Below are positions 10,559 through 62,610 of a stretch of 64,000 bases of DNA, piece by piece. A program made the position numbers and the translations under genes. Below the pieces are notes generated by a model. That model was given only the letters and a program-made list of their open reading frames with translations. It made no database searches and was not told where the DNA came from. Numbering within the stretch: the stretch's first letter is position 1; every line of letters starts with the position of its first letter. The stretch spans positions 6,386,001-6,450,000 of the forward strand of contig CM075991.1 of the NCBI GenBank assembly GCA_038087875.1, in the 5' to 3' direction. Source of the DNA: Malacoraja senta. Its lineage: Eukaryota.

Positions 10559-10720
10559 TGTGCAGGGAGGAACTGTAGATGCTGGTTTAAACCGGACAGA
10601 CACAAAAAGCTGGAGTAACTCAGCGGGTCAGGCAGCATTCGACCCGATACGGCACCTATTTATTTTCTTCAGAGATGCTGCCTGACCCGCTGAGTTACTC
10701 CAGCTTTTTGCGTCTGTCTT
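10559..10720. mobile_element. Penelope-derived fold-back unit
   Basis: Inverted arms GCTGGAGTAACTCAGCGGGTCAGGCAGCAT / ATGCTGCCTGACCCGCTGAGTTACTCCAGC. Confidence 0.85.
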
Positions 10721-11952
10721 TGGTATCCAATTGAATGTCCTCCTCTTTTATAATTTTTATTTCATTCCTCGACCCATTCCGATAACCAAGGTTTTGGAGC
10801 CGAGAATTAACTAGCCAGGATGTGGCAACAGGGAACTTAAATCATAATACAGTTATGTAGAGTCGATATGAAATTAAACAGGCAAATCTAGTGAGAAGTA
10901 GACACGTGGAAGTGCAGATGCTGGAGTCTTGTGTAGAACATAAACTGCTGGAGTAACTGAGCAGGTCAGGCAGCATCTTTGGCTGCAGGGTGAATGTGCA
11001 AACTCCACACAGACAGCACCCGAGGTCAGGATCGAACCTCGGGTCTCCGGCTTTGTAAGGGAGCGGCACTACCGGCTGTGCCACTGTGTCGCCCAGTACA
11101 GAATCTGTCAATTAGTATGCTCTTTACTAAGATTTGATTGCCTTTTAATATGTTTTAAATCATCTTAGGATCTCCTATTTACTCGGTTTCAGAGAAAGAG
11201 GAACCTTTGAGTCTGGGGCACTTGGATCCAGTTTTAATGAACAATGAAAACAGAAAGTGCTGCAAATACTTAAGTGTTAAGGAGCAAAAATTGTTTTACA
11301 AATAATCCACAATTAAGGACCTTCGAGGACTTCCCTTCGTGTTATACATGATATCTGATCCAGATTTTTCTCTATTTCTGCAGATTCTCATGCACTTGAT
11401 AGTATGGGACTGATTTATATGTTTCACCCAAGATATATAATTAGCCAAGATCTATAATTATAGAGACGTCACTGAATATCCATTTATTCAGTATTTCCAA
11501 ACCCTGGGTTTTTGGATGATCTCAAGCATTAATTCAGAAGGGCTGTTACAGTTTGAGTTAAAAATAAATCTCATGAATGTGTAATTGCCTTTCCCAGGTC
11601 AATGTACAAATAATTAGTGACTTTCTCACCCCACCCCCACACTCTTGTCAACACAAGTGAGCAAGCAAAAGTTATCGGCCAATGTCAACATAGCTACAGC
11701 GCTGCCCAGACACTTGGGACGGAGTCCAGGCAAACTTAAGTGCATTAACACTTCAACTGAGGCAAGGCATGGGGAATAACAACACTGCAGTCCTGGTCTG
11801 ACAATAGTGACAGGGGTAAAATCACCTTGAGGCACAAACAGGGGCAACAGTCCAGCAATTCCACCCAGAAAGATCCAGTCCCTTGGTGAAAAGCTTCTTC
11901 CCTACAGCCACCAGGCTACTAAACACTTCAAACTCCAAATGAGGTCTGAACT

Positions 11953-12435
11953 ATGTGTAGGAAGGAACTGCAGATGCTGATTTAAACAGACAATAGACAC
12001 AAAAAGCTGGAGAAACTCAGCGGGACAGTGGAGTGAAGGAATTGGTGACGTTTTGGGTCGAGACTCTTCTTCAGACTAATCAGGGGAAAGGAAAACGAGA
12101 GATATATAGACATGATGTAGAAAGATAAAGAACAATGAAAGATATGCAAAAAAGTAACGATGATAAAGGAAACAGGCCATTCTTAGCTGTTTGTTGGATG
12201 AAAACGAGAAGCTGTTGCGACTTGAGTGGGGGAGGGATGGAGAGAGAGGGAATGCCGGGGTTACTTGAAGCTAGAGAAATCAATATTCATACCACTGGGC
12301 TGTAAGCTGCCCAAGCGAAATATGAGTTGCTGTTCCTCCAATTTGCGTTTAGCCTCACTCTGACAATGGAGGAGACCTAGGACAGAATGGTCAGTGTGGG
12401 AATGGGAAGGAGAATTAAAGTGTTTAGCGACGGGA
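11953..12435 (-). mobile_element. Penelope-like element 3' fragment with hammerhead-bearing terminal repeat
   Basis: PVAKHFNSPSHSH...KRKLEEQQLIFRLGSLQPSGMNIDFSSFK; CTGAAGA..GACCC.AAACGTC core; GAACTA on both flanks. Confidence 0.9.
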
Positions 12436-12622
12436 GAACTACATAGACTTGGGGGCATTGGTTTTTATCTATTTGCATTATTATTGTTTGTTTGTTTGCA
12501 TTTATCTGCATATATGTGTGTATATGTGTGTGTATATATATATATATATATGTTTGTGTGTGTGTATATATATAGTTTACAGAGTACTTTGGCTACATAT
12601 TCTGTTGTGCTGCTGCAAGTAA

Positions 12623-13184
12623 AGGGGCTGTCCCACTTGGGAGACCTAATTGGCGAGTTTAGAAGAGTTTGAAAAATGACATGTTGAAGACCTCCTTCGA
12701 CTATGTAGAAGACCTTCTTCGACTCCTTCGACTATGTTGAAGACCAGCTTCAACATAGCTACGACTAGCTACGACTAACTTCGGGAAAATTGGACACCGA
12801 ATAGTGGAAAGTGAAGACGACCTCCTTCGATCTACTTCGACCTCCCTTCGACTATGATGAAGACTATCTACGACTACCTTCGACTTCCCTCGATTACCTA
12901 CGACTAACATGCGACCTACTACGACCTACTACGACTAAACCTACGAGTTAAATAAAGTATAGATTATTTCCATGGCGACCTTTTTTTAACTTGCGGGCAA
13001 TTTTTTACATATTGAAAAAAACGGCGTGACCTAGCTGAGGCCTCGAGTACGCAGAGACCAGTCTCGAGCATGAAGGAGAGTTACGAAGACCTCCTACGAC
13101 CTCGTGTCGACCATGCTGCGAATATGAAGTCGAGGGAAACTCGCCAGAACTCGCGGATTAGGTCACCCAAGTGGGACAGGCCCT
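12623..13184. mobile_element. PIF/Harbinger-type MITE, long form
   Basis: TIR AGGGGCTGTCCCACTTGGG.GACCTAAT; TAA/TAG flanks; internal CTTCGAC/CTACGAC arrays; inserted in a Rex1-like tail. Confidence 0.9.
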
Positions 13185-14441
13185 TAGGAATTTCATTGTT
13201 CATCTGGGACACATGACGATAAAACACTCTTGACTCTTGGCAATTTGTTGATAGTAGTAATTTGCAAATGGGATGATGGTAGCAGGGGGATCAAGACTGG
13301 AGAGGCAACAAGCTTTCTTAGGCTGGGAGGAAACAATTCCAAAATTTGGAACCCATTGGTGTAGAGGCAACCTATAATGAGTTGCAGGACTCTGCATGCT
13401 GAATAATTGTTTTTGTTTAATAAAGAAGAACGTTTTTTTTGCATGTTTTAAAATAGATTTTTATATCAAAACAGTGCACGTACACAGGTAATGCTGCTTT
13501 TTATAAACAGAATAAAGATCTCTCATCATGTTATATCTTTCTCCATTCATCCCATGGAAAACAATTTACATTTAATAACTTACAGCTCACTTCATATTTA
13601 ACAGGTCTTAAAAATAAAAGCTCAATAAATACTTGCTTTATGAACAAAACCTCCCAGAAACTGGTCACAGTCTGCCTCGGGCAAATGCGAATAGACTTGA
13701 AATTATCATTGAGCCTAAAGCATTGATACGATATTCATGTGTACTCTATTCTAGCCAGCTGTTAATCTGTTTGAAATAAATATAACAAGGCCCGCAAATT
13801 TGCATTGTACACTTTTGTTCTTTGTAAATCAAGGTTCATGTTTTTCACTATTTTTTTTCTTGTTGTTCATTGTTCGAAATACATCCAAAAAGACTCGACG
13901 GCCATTTAACATTGTGCACTTTCCTCCAGCCAGCAGCTAATTTAATATAAATCTGTAAGGAAAAGGGATAATCTCTTGGAGCTGAGGGAAGGATATTAAT
14001 AATGTTGCAGTGCACCAGAATGGTTGATAGGAGGGTACTGTTGACTTGTCTATATTTGGATCAAACAGCTCTGTGATCTGCTATTGGCAATGTTGGCAGG
14101 TGAACACATTCTCAAATGGACTTCTTCTTTGGACTATTTTGGTGCTAAAACAGTGGCACTTCACAAATGCATTAAACTTTTGTCAGCTGGTAACACTACT
14201 TGATACTGCAATCCTTTCAATGGATAGGACAGGTTTAGAGGGATATGGGCCAAACGCAGGCAGGTGGGACTAGTGTAGAAGCGGCATGTTCGTCAGTATG
14301 GGCACATTGGGCCAAAGAGCCTGTTTCCATGACTATGACTATTGTGTATAATCAAACCTGTTTCTACCTGTGAAAAAGGTTTACCCAAAATGTCTTGTCA
14401 ATGTAAGGGTACTTTGCACATTAACTTTGTCTGCAGAAGAC

Positions 14442-60812: not shown

Positions 60813-61034
60813 GTAGAAATGAAGAACTGCAGATGCTGGTTCATACCAAAAAGTCACAAAGTGTTGGAGTAACTCAGCGGGTCAGGCAACATCTCTGGAG
60901 AAAAAGACTGGGAGACGTTTTGGGTCGAGACTCCTTTTCAGACTTTAGGTCTCGACCCAAAACGTCACCCAGCCTTTTTCTCCAGAGATGCTGCCTGACC
61001 TGCTGAGTTATTCCAACACTTTGTGTCTATCTTT
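60813..61034. mobile_element. Penelope-derived fold-back unit with TSD
   Basis: 13-bp TSD AACTAATAATTAT (60800-60812, 61035-61047); long inverted arms. Confidence 0.88.
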
Positions 61035-61564
61035 AACTAATAATTATATTGCTGCACATGTATATTCCGAAATAAATCAATACCTCTATCTAGGATTTAA
61101 TATTTAGTGTCAGTCAATACTCTTTAAGTCCTGACCACCAGCTCCAACTCTGTCACTGGCATCTATCTGTCTGAAACTGAGTAAAACCTTTGTCACATTC
61201 GGCTTCTATTTGACCTCAAGTTGAGCTTTGGACTGCGATCTGCACCATCACTAGGACTACATAATTGAACCTCTTTAACGTGTGAAGATTCTGCTCCTTC
61301 TGGAGCTCATGTATTGGTGAAAATTTCATTCATGCCTTTGTTACCTCTTGTCTTGTTTAATGCAATGGCATTCTGATCTGTCTTCCTCATTTTACCATCT
61401 GTGAATACCGTAACATCTAAATTATGTTGTTGGTAAATTAATTCAATGGTCCCTGAGCTTGGCAGCTTATATTGTTATCTGGCTATGCATTAAAGTCCCT
61501 GTCTTTTTTAATCTATCCTTGGCCTTTGCTCTTCCTGCAATGTTCTTCAATGCTACAATAACGT

Positions 61565-61890
61565 GGGCGGCACGGTGGCGCAGCGGTAGAGTTGCTGCCT
61601 TACAGCGCTTGCAGCACCACAGACTTGGGTTCGATCCCGACTATGGGTGCTGTCTGTGCGGAGTTCCTACGTTCTCCCCGTGACCGCGTGCGTTTTCTCC
61701 TAGATCTTCGGTTTCCTCCCACGCTCCAAAGACGTGCAGGTATGTTGGTAAATTGGCTTGGTGTATGTAAAAAAATTGTCCCTAGTGTGTGTAGGATATA
61801 ATGTTAATGTGCGGGGATCGCTGGACGGTGCGGACTCGGCGGGCCGAAGGGCCTGTTTCCGCACTGTAAACTAAATAAACTAAACTAAAC
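61565..61890 (+). mobile_element. tRNA-derived V-SINE (HE1-like), full length
   Basis: A box GTGGCGCAGCGGT, B box GGTTCGATCC, V domain CGGTTTCCTCCCAC.CTCCAAAGAC, CR1-like tail, (TAAAC)n. Confidence 0.9.
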
Positions 61891-62246
61891 TCCCTGCATG
61901 CTCTAATATTGACTCCTTGCACATTCCTAAATGTTATTGCTGCATCATTAGTAAGACTATCTTTCGCAGCCAAGTCCAAAAACTCTAACACTTCCTTGGA
62001 AATTTGTCTAGCTTCCTACCTTTAGGACACTCCTTAAGAATATATCACTGTTGACCAAGCATTTTTGTCATCAGTTAATATCTCCTGGCTTGTTACAGTA
62101 TTACATTATATCTGGGAACATTCCTCTGAAGTTCCTCAGGATGTTCTTGCTTTAGTAAAGGTGCTATTTCAATGGGAGTTATTGCTAAACTACACTCAAT
62201 AATGGGAAGCATCATTTCAACACATGGCATGGTGGAGCAACATTTA

Positions 62247-62610
62247 ATGTAGACACAAGGAACTGTAGATGCTGGAATCTTGAGCAAAAGACAAAGTGCT
62301 GGAGTAGCTCAGTTGGTTAGCATCTGTGGTGGACATGGATAGGTGGCATTTTGGGGCGGTATCATTTTTCAGACTGAATCTAGTGGTGGGGGGGCTGGGG
62401 GAGCTGGAAAGGTGATGTGGGCGTTACAAAGCCTGGCAAGTGATAGGTGGATATGGGTGAGGGAGGTTTGATAGGCAGGGGGGTGGAGCAGGTGACAAAG
62501 GTGAGAGATGAAAATTCTGAAGAGTGGGTCCCAACCAAAAATATTGTCCATCCATATCCCCCAACAGATGCTGCCGGACCCACTGAGTTACTCCAGCACT
62601 TTGTATTTTG
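62247..62610. mobile_element. Penelope-derived fold-back unit, diverged
   Basis: Inverted arms with degenerate cores; a similar unit lies at 57444-57640. Confidence 0.7.

What the first reader, a model, noticed from the sequence alone, without database searches (positions are those of the whole stretch)
10559..62610. Family of short hammerhead-bearing fold-back insertions with TSDs and a fixed arm asymmetry
Seen: more than 20 copies of a ~130-bp unit containing CTGAAGA-AGGGTC-TC-GACCC-GAAAC-GTC-ACC. About ten are inverted pairs, several with clean TSDs (26498/26718 16 bp; 31017/31169, 41208/41318 and 60800/61035 13 bp). In the pairs at 10559, 25925, 26514, 29030, 31030 and 60813, one arm runs to the full end (...CTGCAGTTCCTTCCTACA) while the other stops at about GTCTATCTT, ~35 nt short. 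The same unit follows GIY-YIG ORF ends at 1138, 12261 and 35560. Known: Penelope-like elements carry minimal type I hammerheads in pseudo-LTRs, occur as inverted repeats and have a short 3' tail. Inference: each 100-350 bp fold-back is one integration event of a retrozyme-like RNA, and the fixed breakpoint records the priming or template-switch site.
Basis: partly seen in the sequence, partly recalled or inferred. Interest (0 to 1): 0.7.

Follow-up and report, generated by a model that had tools for sequence, protein, structure and literature searches.

The report
Short inverted Penelope retroelement ends
These are old, decayed scraps of a Penelope-type jumping gene in a skate-like genome, inserted as back-to-back pairs whose uneven arms are the element's already known short "tail"; they are mostly ordinary, but regular enough to test how such elements insert.

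Summary
There are 40 arms at 28 loci, with none in a reversed control. Twelve are head-to-head pairs, and 8 of the 12 have a convincing 11-31 bp TSD. The unit is the hammerhead-bearing pseudo-LTR end of a Neptune/Nematis-type Penelope-like element (PLE): it follows GIY-YIG ends whose relatives are RT + zinc-finger linker + GIY-YIG proteins. 3' ends are bimodal: 19 of 40 at unit positions 92-97 and 17 of 40 at 128-132. This is the published 30-40 bp PLE tail, shown in vitro to be the gap between two RT start sites (PMC11167929). The retrozyme reading is not supported: no tandem arrays, 1 of 21 cores intact, 1 of 34 5' ends at the cleavage site. Several loci are shared with relatives about 4% diverged. 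Two regularities go beyond the papers I could read. All 12 pairs carry exactly one tailed arm. And 15 of 34 5' ends stop within 6 nt just upstream of the hammerhead core. Best model: both target nicks prime cDNA on one short RNA, one at each start site. Rival: a single cDNA folds back.

The parts
10544..10733 (.). Inverted pair with TSD: tailed arm 10561-10638 (-, unit 50-129), tailless arm 10639-10720 (+, 14-95), TSD 10544-10560/10717-10733
19719..19899 (.). Inverted pair, no TSD: short arm 19719-19783 (-, unit -1..63, holds the only intact hammerhead core), tailed arm 19786-19899 (+, 16-129)
23299..23540 (.).
25893..26155 (.). Inverted pair: tailless arm 25925-25986 (-, 33-94), tailed arm 25987-26121 (+, -4..129), decayed TSD 25893-25923/26125-26155
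   Evidence: orthologous contigs enter the arms in four relatives
26498..26733 (.). Inverted pair: tailed arm 26513-26642 (-, 0-129), 9-nt spacer, tailless arm 26652-26717 (+, 30-95), 16-bp TSD
   Evidence: centre, right arm and TSD shared with run X5 (record 20)
29018..29202 (.). Inverted pair: tailless arm 29030-29125 (-, -3..92), tailed arm 29127-29191 (+, 65-129), 11-bp TSD; the centre is a 6-bp perfect palindrome of the unit's 5' start
31017..31181 (.). Inverted pair, among the least diverged: tailed arm 31030-31072 (-, 87-129), tailless arm 31073-31168 (+, 1-97), perfect 13-bp TSD
38522..38782 (.). Old inverted pair: tailless arm (-, 19 to ~97), 53-nt spacer, tailed arm (+, -1..129); no convincing TSD; arms not each other's closest
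41208..41330 (.). Pair with a ~13-nt tail-only arm 41221-41233 (-, ~116-128, imperfect) and tailless arm 41234-41317 (+, 10-95), perfect 13-bp TSD
   Evidence: short arm hand-read
57444..57639 (.). Inverted pair, second subfamily: tailed arm (-, -2..129), 8-nt spacer holding 6 nt of the unit's 5' start, tailless arm (+, 44-96); no TSD
60800..61047 (.). Inverted pair, second subfamily: tailed arm 60813-60944 (-, -2..129), tailless arm 60948-61034 (+, 10-96), perfect 13-bp TSD; arms share private variants
62241..62621 (.). Inverted pair whose tailed arm (-) keeps ~139 nt of upstream UTR-like sequence; tailless arm 62516-62611 (+, 0-94); weak 10-bp TSD
11953..12434 (-). 5'-truncated PLE: GIY-YIG C-terminus (12434 to ~12261), 189-nt pyrimidine-rich UTR, full tailed unit
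35139..35630 (-). 5'-truncated PLE: last GIY-YIG codons, 307-nt UTR with a ~190-nt internal fold-back, tailless unit (ends at 95), no partner arm
884..1400 (-). 5'-truncated, frameshifted GIY-YIG end, 210-nt UTR, unit cut at position 47
21888..21997 (-). Solo tailless copy (0-96) with a 12-bp TSD
27218..27363 (-). Solo tailed copy (-1..131), weak 9-bp TSD
32664..32822 (+). Solo tailed copy (-1 to ~129), 15-bp TSD with 2 mismatches
24003..24150 (+). Direct partial tandem: unit 42-89 followed by unit -2..96; one hammerhead only
29925..30060 (+). Solo tailless copy with ~40 nt of UTR
7362..7490 (-). Solo tailless copy with UTR-like upstream sequence
4097..4229 (-). Solo tailed copy (-3..128), no TSD
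55002..55098 (+). Solo tailless copy (0-96), no TSD
54042..54100 (-). Solo tailless fragment (38-96)
10897..10982 (-). Solo tailed fragment of a more diverged subfamily (44 to ~129)
2690..2797 (-). Solo decayed copy (7 to ~123)
3237..3292 (+). Solo tailless copy with an internal deletion (8 to ~97)

Best explanation
The unit is the hammerhead-bearing pseudo-LTR end of a Neptune/Nematis-type Penelope-like retroelement. The pairs are extremely 5'-truncated, now dead insertions made by that element's RT/GIY-YIG protein. (1) The endonuclease makes two staggered nicks, mostly 11-17 bp apart, in AT-rich DNA (TSDs shown; nicking inferred from the family). (2) Each nick primes a cDNA on uncleaved element RNA, one at about unit position 130 (tail end, helped by 2-4 nt of pairing to an AC-rich patch) and the other at about 96. 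Two start sites are shown in vitro for an anole PLE; their use here is inferred from the ends. (3) The two starts are coupled, most simply on one RNA held by an RT dimer, so every pair has exactly one tailed arm (inferred). (4) cDNAs often end just upstream of the hammerhead core, probably an RNA 5' end or a strong stop, and are joined head-to-head (end cluster shown; cause inferred). (5) Deletions between short direct repeats trim the palindrome. Solo copies are events in which one cDNA was lost (inferred). The hammerhead takes no part in making the insert ends.
For: PLE identity: the unit follows three GIY-YIG ends. The 53-aa end hits skate proteins at 75-79% identity. Its relatives include 750-950-aa proteins with RT (DKG, YIDD), a CX2-5CxxC linker and C-terminal GIY-YIG. 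Tail: 36 of 40 3' ends lie at 92-97 or 128-132, about 34 nt apart, which matches the 30-40 bp tail (PMC3846280, PMC8557442; 34-bp repeat in D. virilis, PMC2377424). In three relatives' contigs the loose-end consensus runs to the same tail end and then turns heterogeneous (table 7). Position 96 is a start in its own right: 8 solo copies end there with no partner, one with its own TSD (21904) and one behind a GIY-YIG end (35139). Coupling: 12 of 12 pairs have one tailed arm, whereas solos are 8 tailless to 5 tailed; P = 1.3e-4 if arms chose independently. One event: TSDs bracket both arms in 8 of 12 pairs versus 2 of 12 solos (Fisher p 0.036). Four pairs share variants seen in no other copy. TSDs are 71% AT against 58% for the window. 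Target/tail overlap is >=2 nt in 7 of 9 hand-read junctions (null 0.22 each). In 6 of 12 pairs the tailless arm reaches further 5' than the tailed arm, which is natural for two cDNAs. 5' cluster: 15 of 34 at -4..+1, in both subfamilies.
Against: In 4 of 9 testable centres the second arm begins with 4-6 nt of the unit's 5' start (null about 5-10%, p 5e-4 to 9e-3, post hoc). This restores nesting of the arms and fits a single fold-back cDNA equally well. In vitro, both strands used both start sites, with no asymmetry reported (PMC11167929). 38524 and 57453 have arms that are not each other's closest and have no TSD, and 19719 has no TSD and a short arm ending at 63. Shared variants could come from gene conversion between arms. 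No empty orthologous site was seen, and the joint table was swamped (74,052 rows hidden). Genome-wide many copies do carry the upstream UTR (loose-end agreement 0.35), so the 5' cluster may be weaker than in this window. End positions and overlaps were hand-read and the bins chosen after seeing the data.
Confidence: 0.6

Rival explanations
1. Same element, single-cDNA fold-back. One cDNA primed at the tail end runs off near the hammerhead's 5' edge, folds on itself and copies itself back. The endonuclease or repair resolves the second arm at about position 96, and later deletions remove most of one arm.
For: It explains the 12 of 12 one-tail rule and the shared private variants without a dimer. 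There is a perfect 6-bp palindromic centre at 29030, and 5'-start remnants in 4 of 9 centres. Self-priming was proposed for PLE inverted junctions (PMC3846280), and EN-mediated resolution for the tail (PMC8557442).
Against: 8 solo copies end at 92-97 with no tailed partner, including one with its own TSD and one behind a GIY-YIG end. Six pairs are not nested and need a secondary deletion each; 10561 and 23361 show no remnant. Two RT start sites bracketing the tail were mapped in vitro (PMC11167929).
Confidence: 0.27
2. Retrozyme-like RNA: a short hammerhead-processed, possibly circular RNA is reverse-transcribed and inserted.
For: The unit is short, non-coding as inserted, highly repeated (depth 4-5 orders above single-copy bins in four relatives; not a copy number) and has a minimal type I hammerhead. 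A 2026 preprint argues that animal retrozymes derive from PLE pLTRs and finds them in one chondrichthyan (10.64898/2026.07.22.740005).
Against: No tandem array of the unit. Only 1 of 34 5' ends lies at the cleavage site. 3' ends lie 67 and 101 nt beyond it rather than at it. The hammerhead is of the minimal PLE type, not the canonical retrozyme type. Six copies run into the PLE UTR or ORF.
Confidence: 0.04
3. Two independent insertions at one site, or a solo copy later duplicated in inverted form by repair.
For: 38524 and 57453 have dissimilar arms and no TSD. The family is abundant and prefers AT-rich DNA.
Against: All 12 pairs are head-to-head. A single TSD brackets both arms in 8 of 12. The one-tail rule has P = 1.3e-4 under independence.
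Confidence: 0.05
4. MITE-like DNA transposon or a selected hairpin RNA element.
For: The arms form terminal inverted repeats, and some pairs fold as long hairpins.
Against: TSD length varies (11-31 bp) and the termini are unequal. No fold is better than shuffles (z from -0.8 to 1.4), and 1 of 10 consensus pairs has a compensatory change. Median non-CpG divergence is 9.7% with CpG decay, including the hammerhead's GAAA G (kept as CG in 7 of 27).
Confidence: 0.03

Closest known systems
Endonuclease-positive Penelope-like elements, Neptune/Nematis type (PMC8557442, PMC3846280; passages read)
   Same: C-terminal GIY-YIG, linker zinc finger in relatives, 5' truncation, head-to-head inverted pLTRs bracketed by a variable TSD, 30-40 bp tail on one end only, minimal hammerhead.
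   Different: Most inserts here are only the last 100-130 nt, both arms are that short, and 5' ends cluster at the hammerhead's upstream edge. No full-length element lies in the window.
Poseidon PAc of Anolis (PMC11167929; abstract, results and part of methods read)
   Same: Two RT start sites roughly 100 nt past the hammerhead that bracket the tail, AT-rich targets, both strands cut and extended, uncleaved RNA as template.
   Different: Different clade (no linker finger). PAc showed no strand asymmetry and no homology at the priming site, whereas these pairs have a strict one-tail rule and 2-4 nt of overlap at the tail end.
Minimal hammerheads of metazoan PLEs (PMC4209133; parts 1-2 of 4 read)
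   Same: Extra base before helix II, G-C first pair, palindromic CG in place of helix III, very short helix I, thousands of solo copies, and pairs on opposite strands 100-700 bp apart.
   Different: That paper did not tabulate arm ends, and I saw no chondrichthyan example in the part read.
Animal non-LTR retrozymes (PMC7229834, passages; bioRxiv 10.64898/2026.07.22.740005, parts 1-2 of 5 and passages)
   Same: Short, hammerhead-bearing, dependent on a PLE protein in trans or derived from a pLTR.
   Different: Retrozymes are head-to-tail tandems cut by the ribozyme. These are head-to-head pairs and solos whose ends ignore the cleavage site.
L1 twin priming (recalled, no call)
   Same: Both target nicks prime cDNA, giving an inverted insert inside one TSD.
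   Different: In L1 the second primer lands at variable internal sites and the parts do not overlap. Here the second site is fixed and arms overlap by up to about 85 nt.

Membership tests
EN+ Penelope-like element | C-terminal GIY-YIG endonuclease with cysteines inside the core, directly upstream of the terminal repeat | tested here: met
   Three EN ends 189-307 nt upstream of the unit. The window fragments are too short for a Pfam hit; relative P0010 hits GIY-YIG just under the cut-off, and full-length relatives hit it in 6 of 7.
EN+ Penelope-like element | PLE-type RT in the same ORF | tested here: inconclusive
   Not in the window (copies are truncated). Present in homologues: RVT_1 in 6 of 7 and a DKG motif in 12 of 12 long proteins.
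EN+ Penelope-like element | Direct or inverted pLTRs with a variable TSD | tested here: met
   12 head-to-head pairs, one partial tandem, TSDs of 11-31 bp
EN+ Penelope-like element | Optional 30-40 bp tail at one end | tested here: met
   Ends at 92-97 versus 128-132
EN+ Penelope-like element | Minimal type I hammerhead in the pLTR | tested here: met
   CUGANGA, bulged A, 5-bp helix II, GAAA, CG, UH; complete in 1 of 21 copies and decayed in the rest. No Rfam hammerhead match, as expected for the minimal form.
Neptune/Nematis clades | CX2-5CxxC linker finger between RT and EN | tested here: inconclusive
   The region is absent from the window fragments. It is present in close relatives P0009, P0010, P0015, P0021 and in 113 of 170 stored proteins. 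No RT tree was built, so Neptune versus Nematis is not resolved.
non-LTR retrozyme | Head-to-tail tandem units, each with a hammerhead | tested here: not met
   No array of the unit among 34 TRF rows; the one direct tandem has one hammerhead
non-LTR retrozyme | Unit boundaries set by self-cleavage | tested here: not met
   1 of 34 5' ends at 28-30
non-LTR retrozyme | Abundant linear and circular RNA; self-cleavage | not testable with these tools
   No RNA holder listed; no assay
MITE / DNA transposon | Equal terminal inverted repeats and fixed short TSD | tested here: not met
   Unequal termini, TSD 11-31 bp

The most novel reading that the evidence does not exclude
PLE integration is an obligate twin initiation. 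An RT dimer engages both start sites of one RNA, one per target nick. In skates the preferred template is the 5' head of the element's own transcript, which begins (or stops RT) just upstream of the hammerhead. The inserts would then be integrated strong-stop-like cDNA pairs of about 100 and 130 nt. The tail, the inverted pLTR and the solo pLTR would be three outcomes of one reaction, recorded in a very large number of genomic copies.
Probability: 0.3. Interest if true: 0.6.

Novelty: new member of a known kind. Interest (0 to 1): 0.33.

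Why it matters
How PLEs make their tandem and inverted structures is still stated to be unresolved (PMC8557442, PMC11167929). This family is short, very abundant and TSD-bracketed, so a genome-wide tally would discriminate twin initiation from fold-back cheaply. It would also say whether RT stops at a transcription start or at a splice acceptor next to the hammerhead. 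Practically, these pairs are easy to mislabel as MITEs, miRNA-like hairpins (Rfam gave sub-threshold miRNA matches) or retrozymes. The copies themselves look like neutral fossils.

Tried and rejected
No whole genome is held, so the genome-wide tally was not possible. Rfam at gathering score: 0 matches in the window. At E<=10 on 19650-19950: only generic hairpin matches, no hammerhead. Folding: no z-score below -0.81 for 8 sequences. The consensus fold of 11 copies has 10 pairs, 1 with a compensatory change, so no structure could be placed at the two start sites. No RNA holder was listed among 24 runs; this is no evidence on expression. Empty-site search: 4 of the 24 runs were laid on 21800-41500 only, and no listed joint skips a whole pair, but 74,052 joints were not shown, so it is inconclusive. 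The one open frame through the unit (42 codons in copy 27232) found no protein, so whether the unit is also the ORF's N-terminus is open. Spliced template: no copy shows the EN-end sequence joined directly to the hammerhead, so a spliced RNA with a long first exon is not supported; a splice-linked stop is not excluded. One 19-nt hit (9069) was dropped from end counts and the hand-read 41208 arm added. Six arms with upstream UTR were left out of the 5' count. Earlier scan findings: nothing relevant. Literature searches returned no description of this skate family, of a one-tail rule, or of a 5' cluster. The library lacks subscription papers (for example Arkhipova 2006, Evgen'ev and Arkhipova 2005) and Repbase/Dfam, where the family is probably catalogued. 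The supplement text of PMC11167929 had no hits for four terms, its figures S1-S2 are not held and may bear on RNA ends, and the preprint's supplements are closed. One search was uninformative.

Full report
Setting. No genome is held. The window holds a BMP10-like gene on the minus strand. The best named hits of a repeat-borne peptide are Leucoraja, Rhinoraja and Amblyraja proteins, so it is inferred to come from a skate or close relative. Positions below are unit coordinates, 1 = C of CTGAAGA.

Observation. A majority reference built in-script from 14 window copies finds 40 hits at 28 loci, 5.4% of the window, and none in the reversed window. Eleven neighbouring pairs are minus-then-plus and one is direct. 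41208 adds a twelfth inverted pair with an imperfect ~13-nt arm read by hand. In all, 8 of 12 pairs score >=8, against 2 of 12 solos and 2 of 120 random spans; 19719, 38524 and 57453 have none and 62257 is weak (Fisher p 0.036). Raw BLAST ends are bimodal: 13 at 91-99, 2 at 100-119, 16 at >=120, 9 shorter. After hand-reading, 19 of 40 end at 92-97, 17 at 128-132 and 4 elsewhere. Every pair has exactly one tailed arm; the other arm ends at 92-97 in 11 pairs and at 63 in 19719.

What the unit is. Three copies follow the last codons of a GIY-YIG endonuclease at 189-307 nt. That peptide's relatives carry a CX2-5CxxC finger upstream of the endonuclease cysteines. [quoted passage not shown] By PMC8557442 (passages) this is the Neptune/Nematis architecture; the finger and RT are not in the window itself. 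The 5' part of the unit matches the minimal PLE hammerhead of PMC4209133 (parts 1-2 of 4). That paper already reports thousands of solo motifs and opposite-strand pairs 100-700 bp apart.

The asymmetry is the PLE tail. PMC3846280 (passages) describes inverted pLTRs inside a 9-10 bp TSD with a 31-bp tail on one of them. PMC8557442 says the 30-40 bp tail is often at only one end. PMC2377424 (passages) gives the 34-bp repeat of D. virilis Penelope. PMC11167929 (parts 1-2 of 4) shows in vitro that RT starts at two internal sites, that the tail is the sequence between them, that both strands are cut and extended at AT-rich DNA, and that uncleaved RNA is the template. The ~34-nt offset and the AT-rich TSDs here (71% versus 58%) match. 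In three of four relatives laid, the loose-end consensus runs to the same tail end and then becomes heterogeneous.

Age and activity. Median non-CpG divergence from the reference is 9.7%, CpGs are decayed, and only 1 of 21 hammerhead cores is intact. Four of 24 listed runs (four organisms, about 4% diverged) were laid on 21800-41500. Orthologous contigs enter arms at 21904, 23361, 25920, 26513, 27232, 29030, 32677 and 38524, and one spans the centre, right arm and TSD of 26513. These loci therefore predate the species splits. No empty site was listed, but 74,052 joints were hidden. Folding is no better than shuffles.

Not a retrozyme. Retrozymes are head-to-tail tandems processed by the ribozyme (PMC7229834, passages; bioRxiv 10.64898/2026.07.22.740005, parts 1-2 of 5 and passages). 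No tandem array of the unit exists. Of 34 arms without upstream UTR, 1 starts at the cleavage site. The preprint's point that retrozymes derive from pLTRs makes them relatives of this family, not the same thing.

Beyond the papers read. First, the one-tail rule: solos are 8 tailless to 5 tailed, so 12 of 12 discordant pairs have P = 1.3e-4 under independent choice. Partner arms are among the closest sequences in 7 of 9 testable pairs, four share variants found in no other copy, and two (38524, 57453) are not close. Second, a 5' cluster: 15 of 34 arms start at -4..+1, in both subfamilies, and 13 of the 15 abut a partner arm, spacer or TSD (read). The site reads TCAGT. This fits a recalled initiator consensus, and also a recalled splice acceptor after an 80% pyrimidine tract with a GT just past the endonuclease end. 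In D. virilis the intron ends at the hammerhead's helix I. No copy shows a spliced join, and no RNA data were available. Against over-reading: the reference itself starts at -3, and genome-wide many copies keep the UTR (loose-end agreement 0.35). Third, in 4 of 9 centres the second arm begins with 4-6 nt of the unit's start (null 5-10%, post hoc). This suggests that both arms began at the cluster and one later lost its inside between short repeats. Fourth, the TSD overlaps the tail end by >=2 nt in 7 of 9 hand-read junctions.

Mechanism. The best reading is that two nicks prime two cDNAs, at about 130 and about 96, on one uncleaved RNA. The cDNAs end near the hammerhead's upstream edge, are joined head-to-head, and are later trimmed; solos are events with one cDNA lost (0.6). 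The strongest support is that position 96 is used by partnerless copies, and that 6 of 12 pairs are not nested. The rival is one cDNA folding back, resolved at the tail boundary (0.27); the centre remnants favour it. Shown here: ends, TSDs, orientation, homology, decay, sharing with relatives. Taken from papers: two RT starts, cleavage of both strands. Inferred: coupling, single RNA, cause of the 5' stop, deletions. L1 twin priming, the initiator and splice consensus, and strong-stop DNA are recalled, from no call.

Novelty. Identity and asymmetry are known PLE features, so this is a new member of a known kind. Nine paper searches found no account of this skate family, the one-tail rule or the 5' cluster, but subscription papers, Repbase/Dfam and some supplements were not visible. 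Interest 0.33: ordinary as a repeat, useful as a natural data set for the open question of how PLEs form inverted insertions.

Noticed in passing
window 20735-25361 (-): BMP10-like gene: exon 2 best matches BMP10 over GDF2, and the probable exon 1 lies near 24970-25300. Its intron holds copies 21904, 23361 and 24003/24052.
   Followed up: partly
window 9674-9912, 12622-13185, 49489-50069: A second, unrelated inverted-repeat family with equal ~17-49 bp termini, 3-bp TAA-type flanks and internal 10- and 22-bp tandem repeats; looks like a Harbinger-type MITE (label recalled).
   Followed up: partly
window 35353-35540: A ~190-nt fold-back inside the UTR of the 35139 copy, starting right at the donor-like GT after the endonuclease end; the other two UTRs lack it.
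   Followed up: partly
window 26511 / 31028 (table 5): 54-64 contigs in each of four relatives join two tail ends on opposite strands, which suggests that tail-to-tail junctions also occur elsewhere in these genomes; none is in this window.
   Followed up: no
window 37022 (tables 5 and 7): Many contigs join the 3' end of an abundant SINE-like repeat with a simple-repeat tail to ends of the unit, perhaps shared AT-rich targets.
   Followed up: no
window 27227-27352 (-): One reading frame is open through the whole unit (42 codons) and could be the ORF's N-terminus, as in other pLTRs; no protein hit.
   Followed up: yes
window 41950-43664 (-): Broken LTR-retroelement pol fragment with integrase domains; described only.
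   Followed up: no
window 39463-40929 (-), 47489-48659 (-), 60041-60463 (+): LINE remnants: zf-RVT-like (below cut-off), RVT_1, and a fragment with no Pfam hit that resembles a restriction-like endonuclease end (recalled).
   Followed up: no
window 24003-24150: Direct partial tandem of the unit (42-89, then -2..96), a miniature pseudo-LTR arrangement without a TSD.
   Followed up: partly
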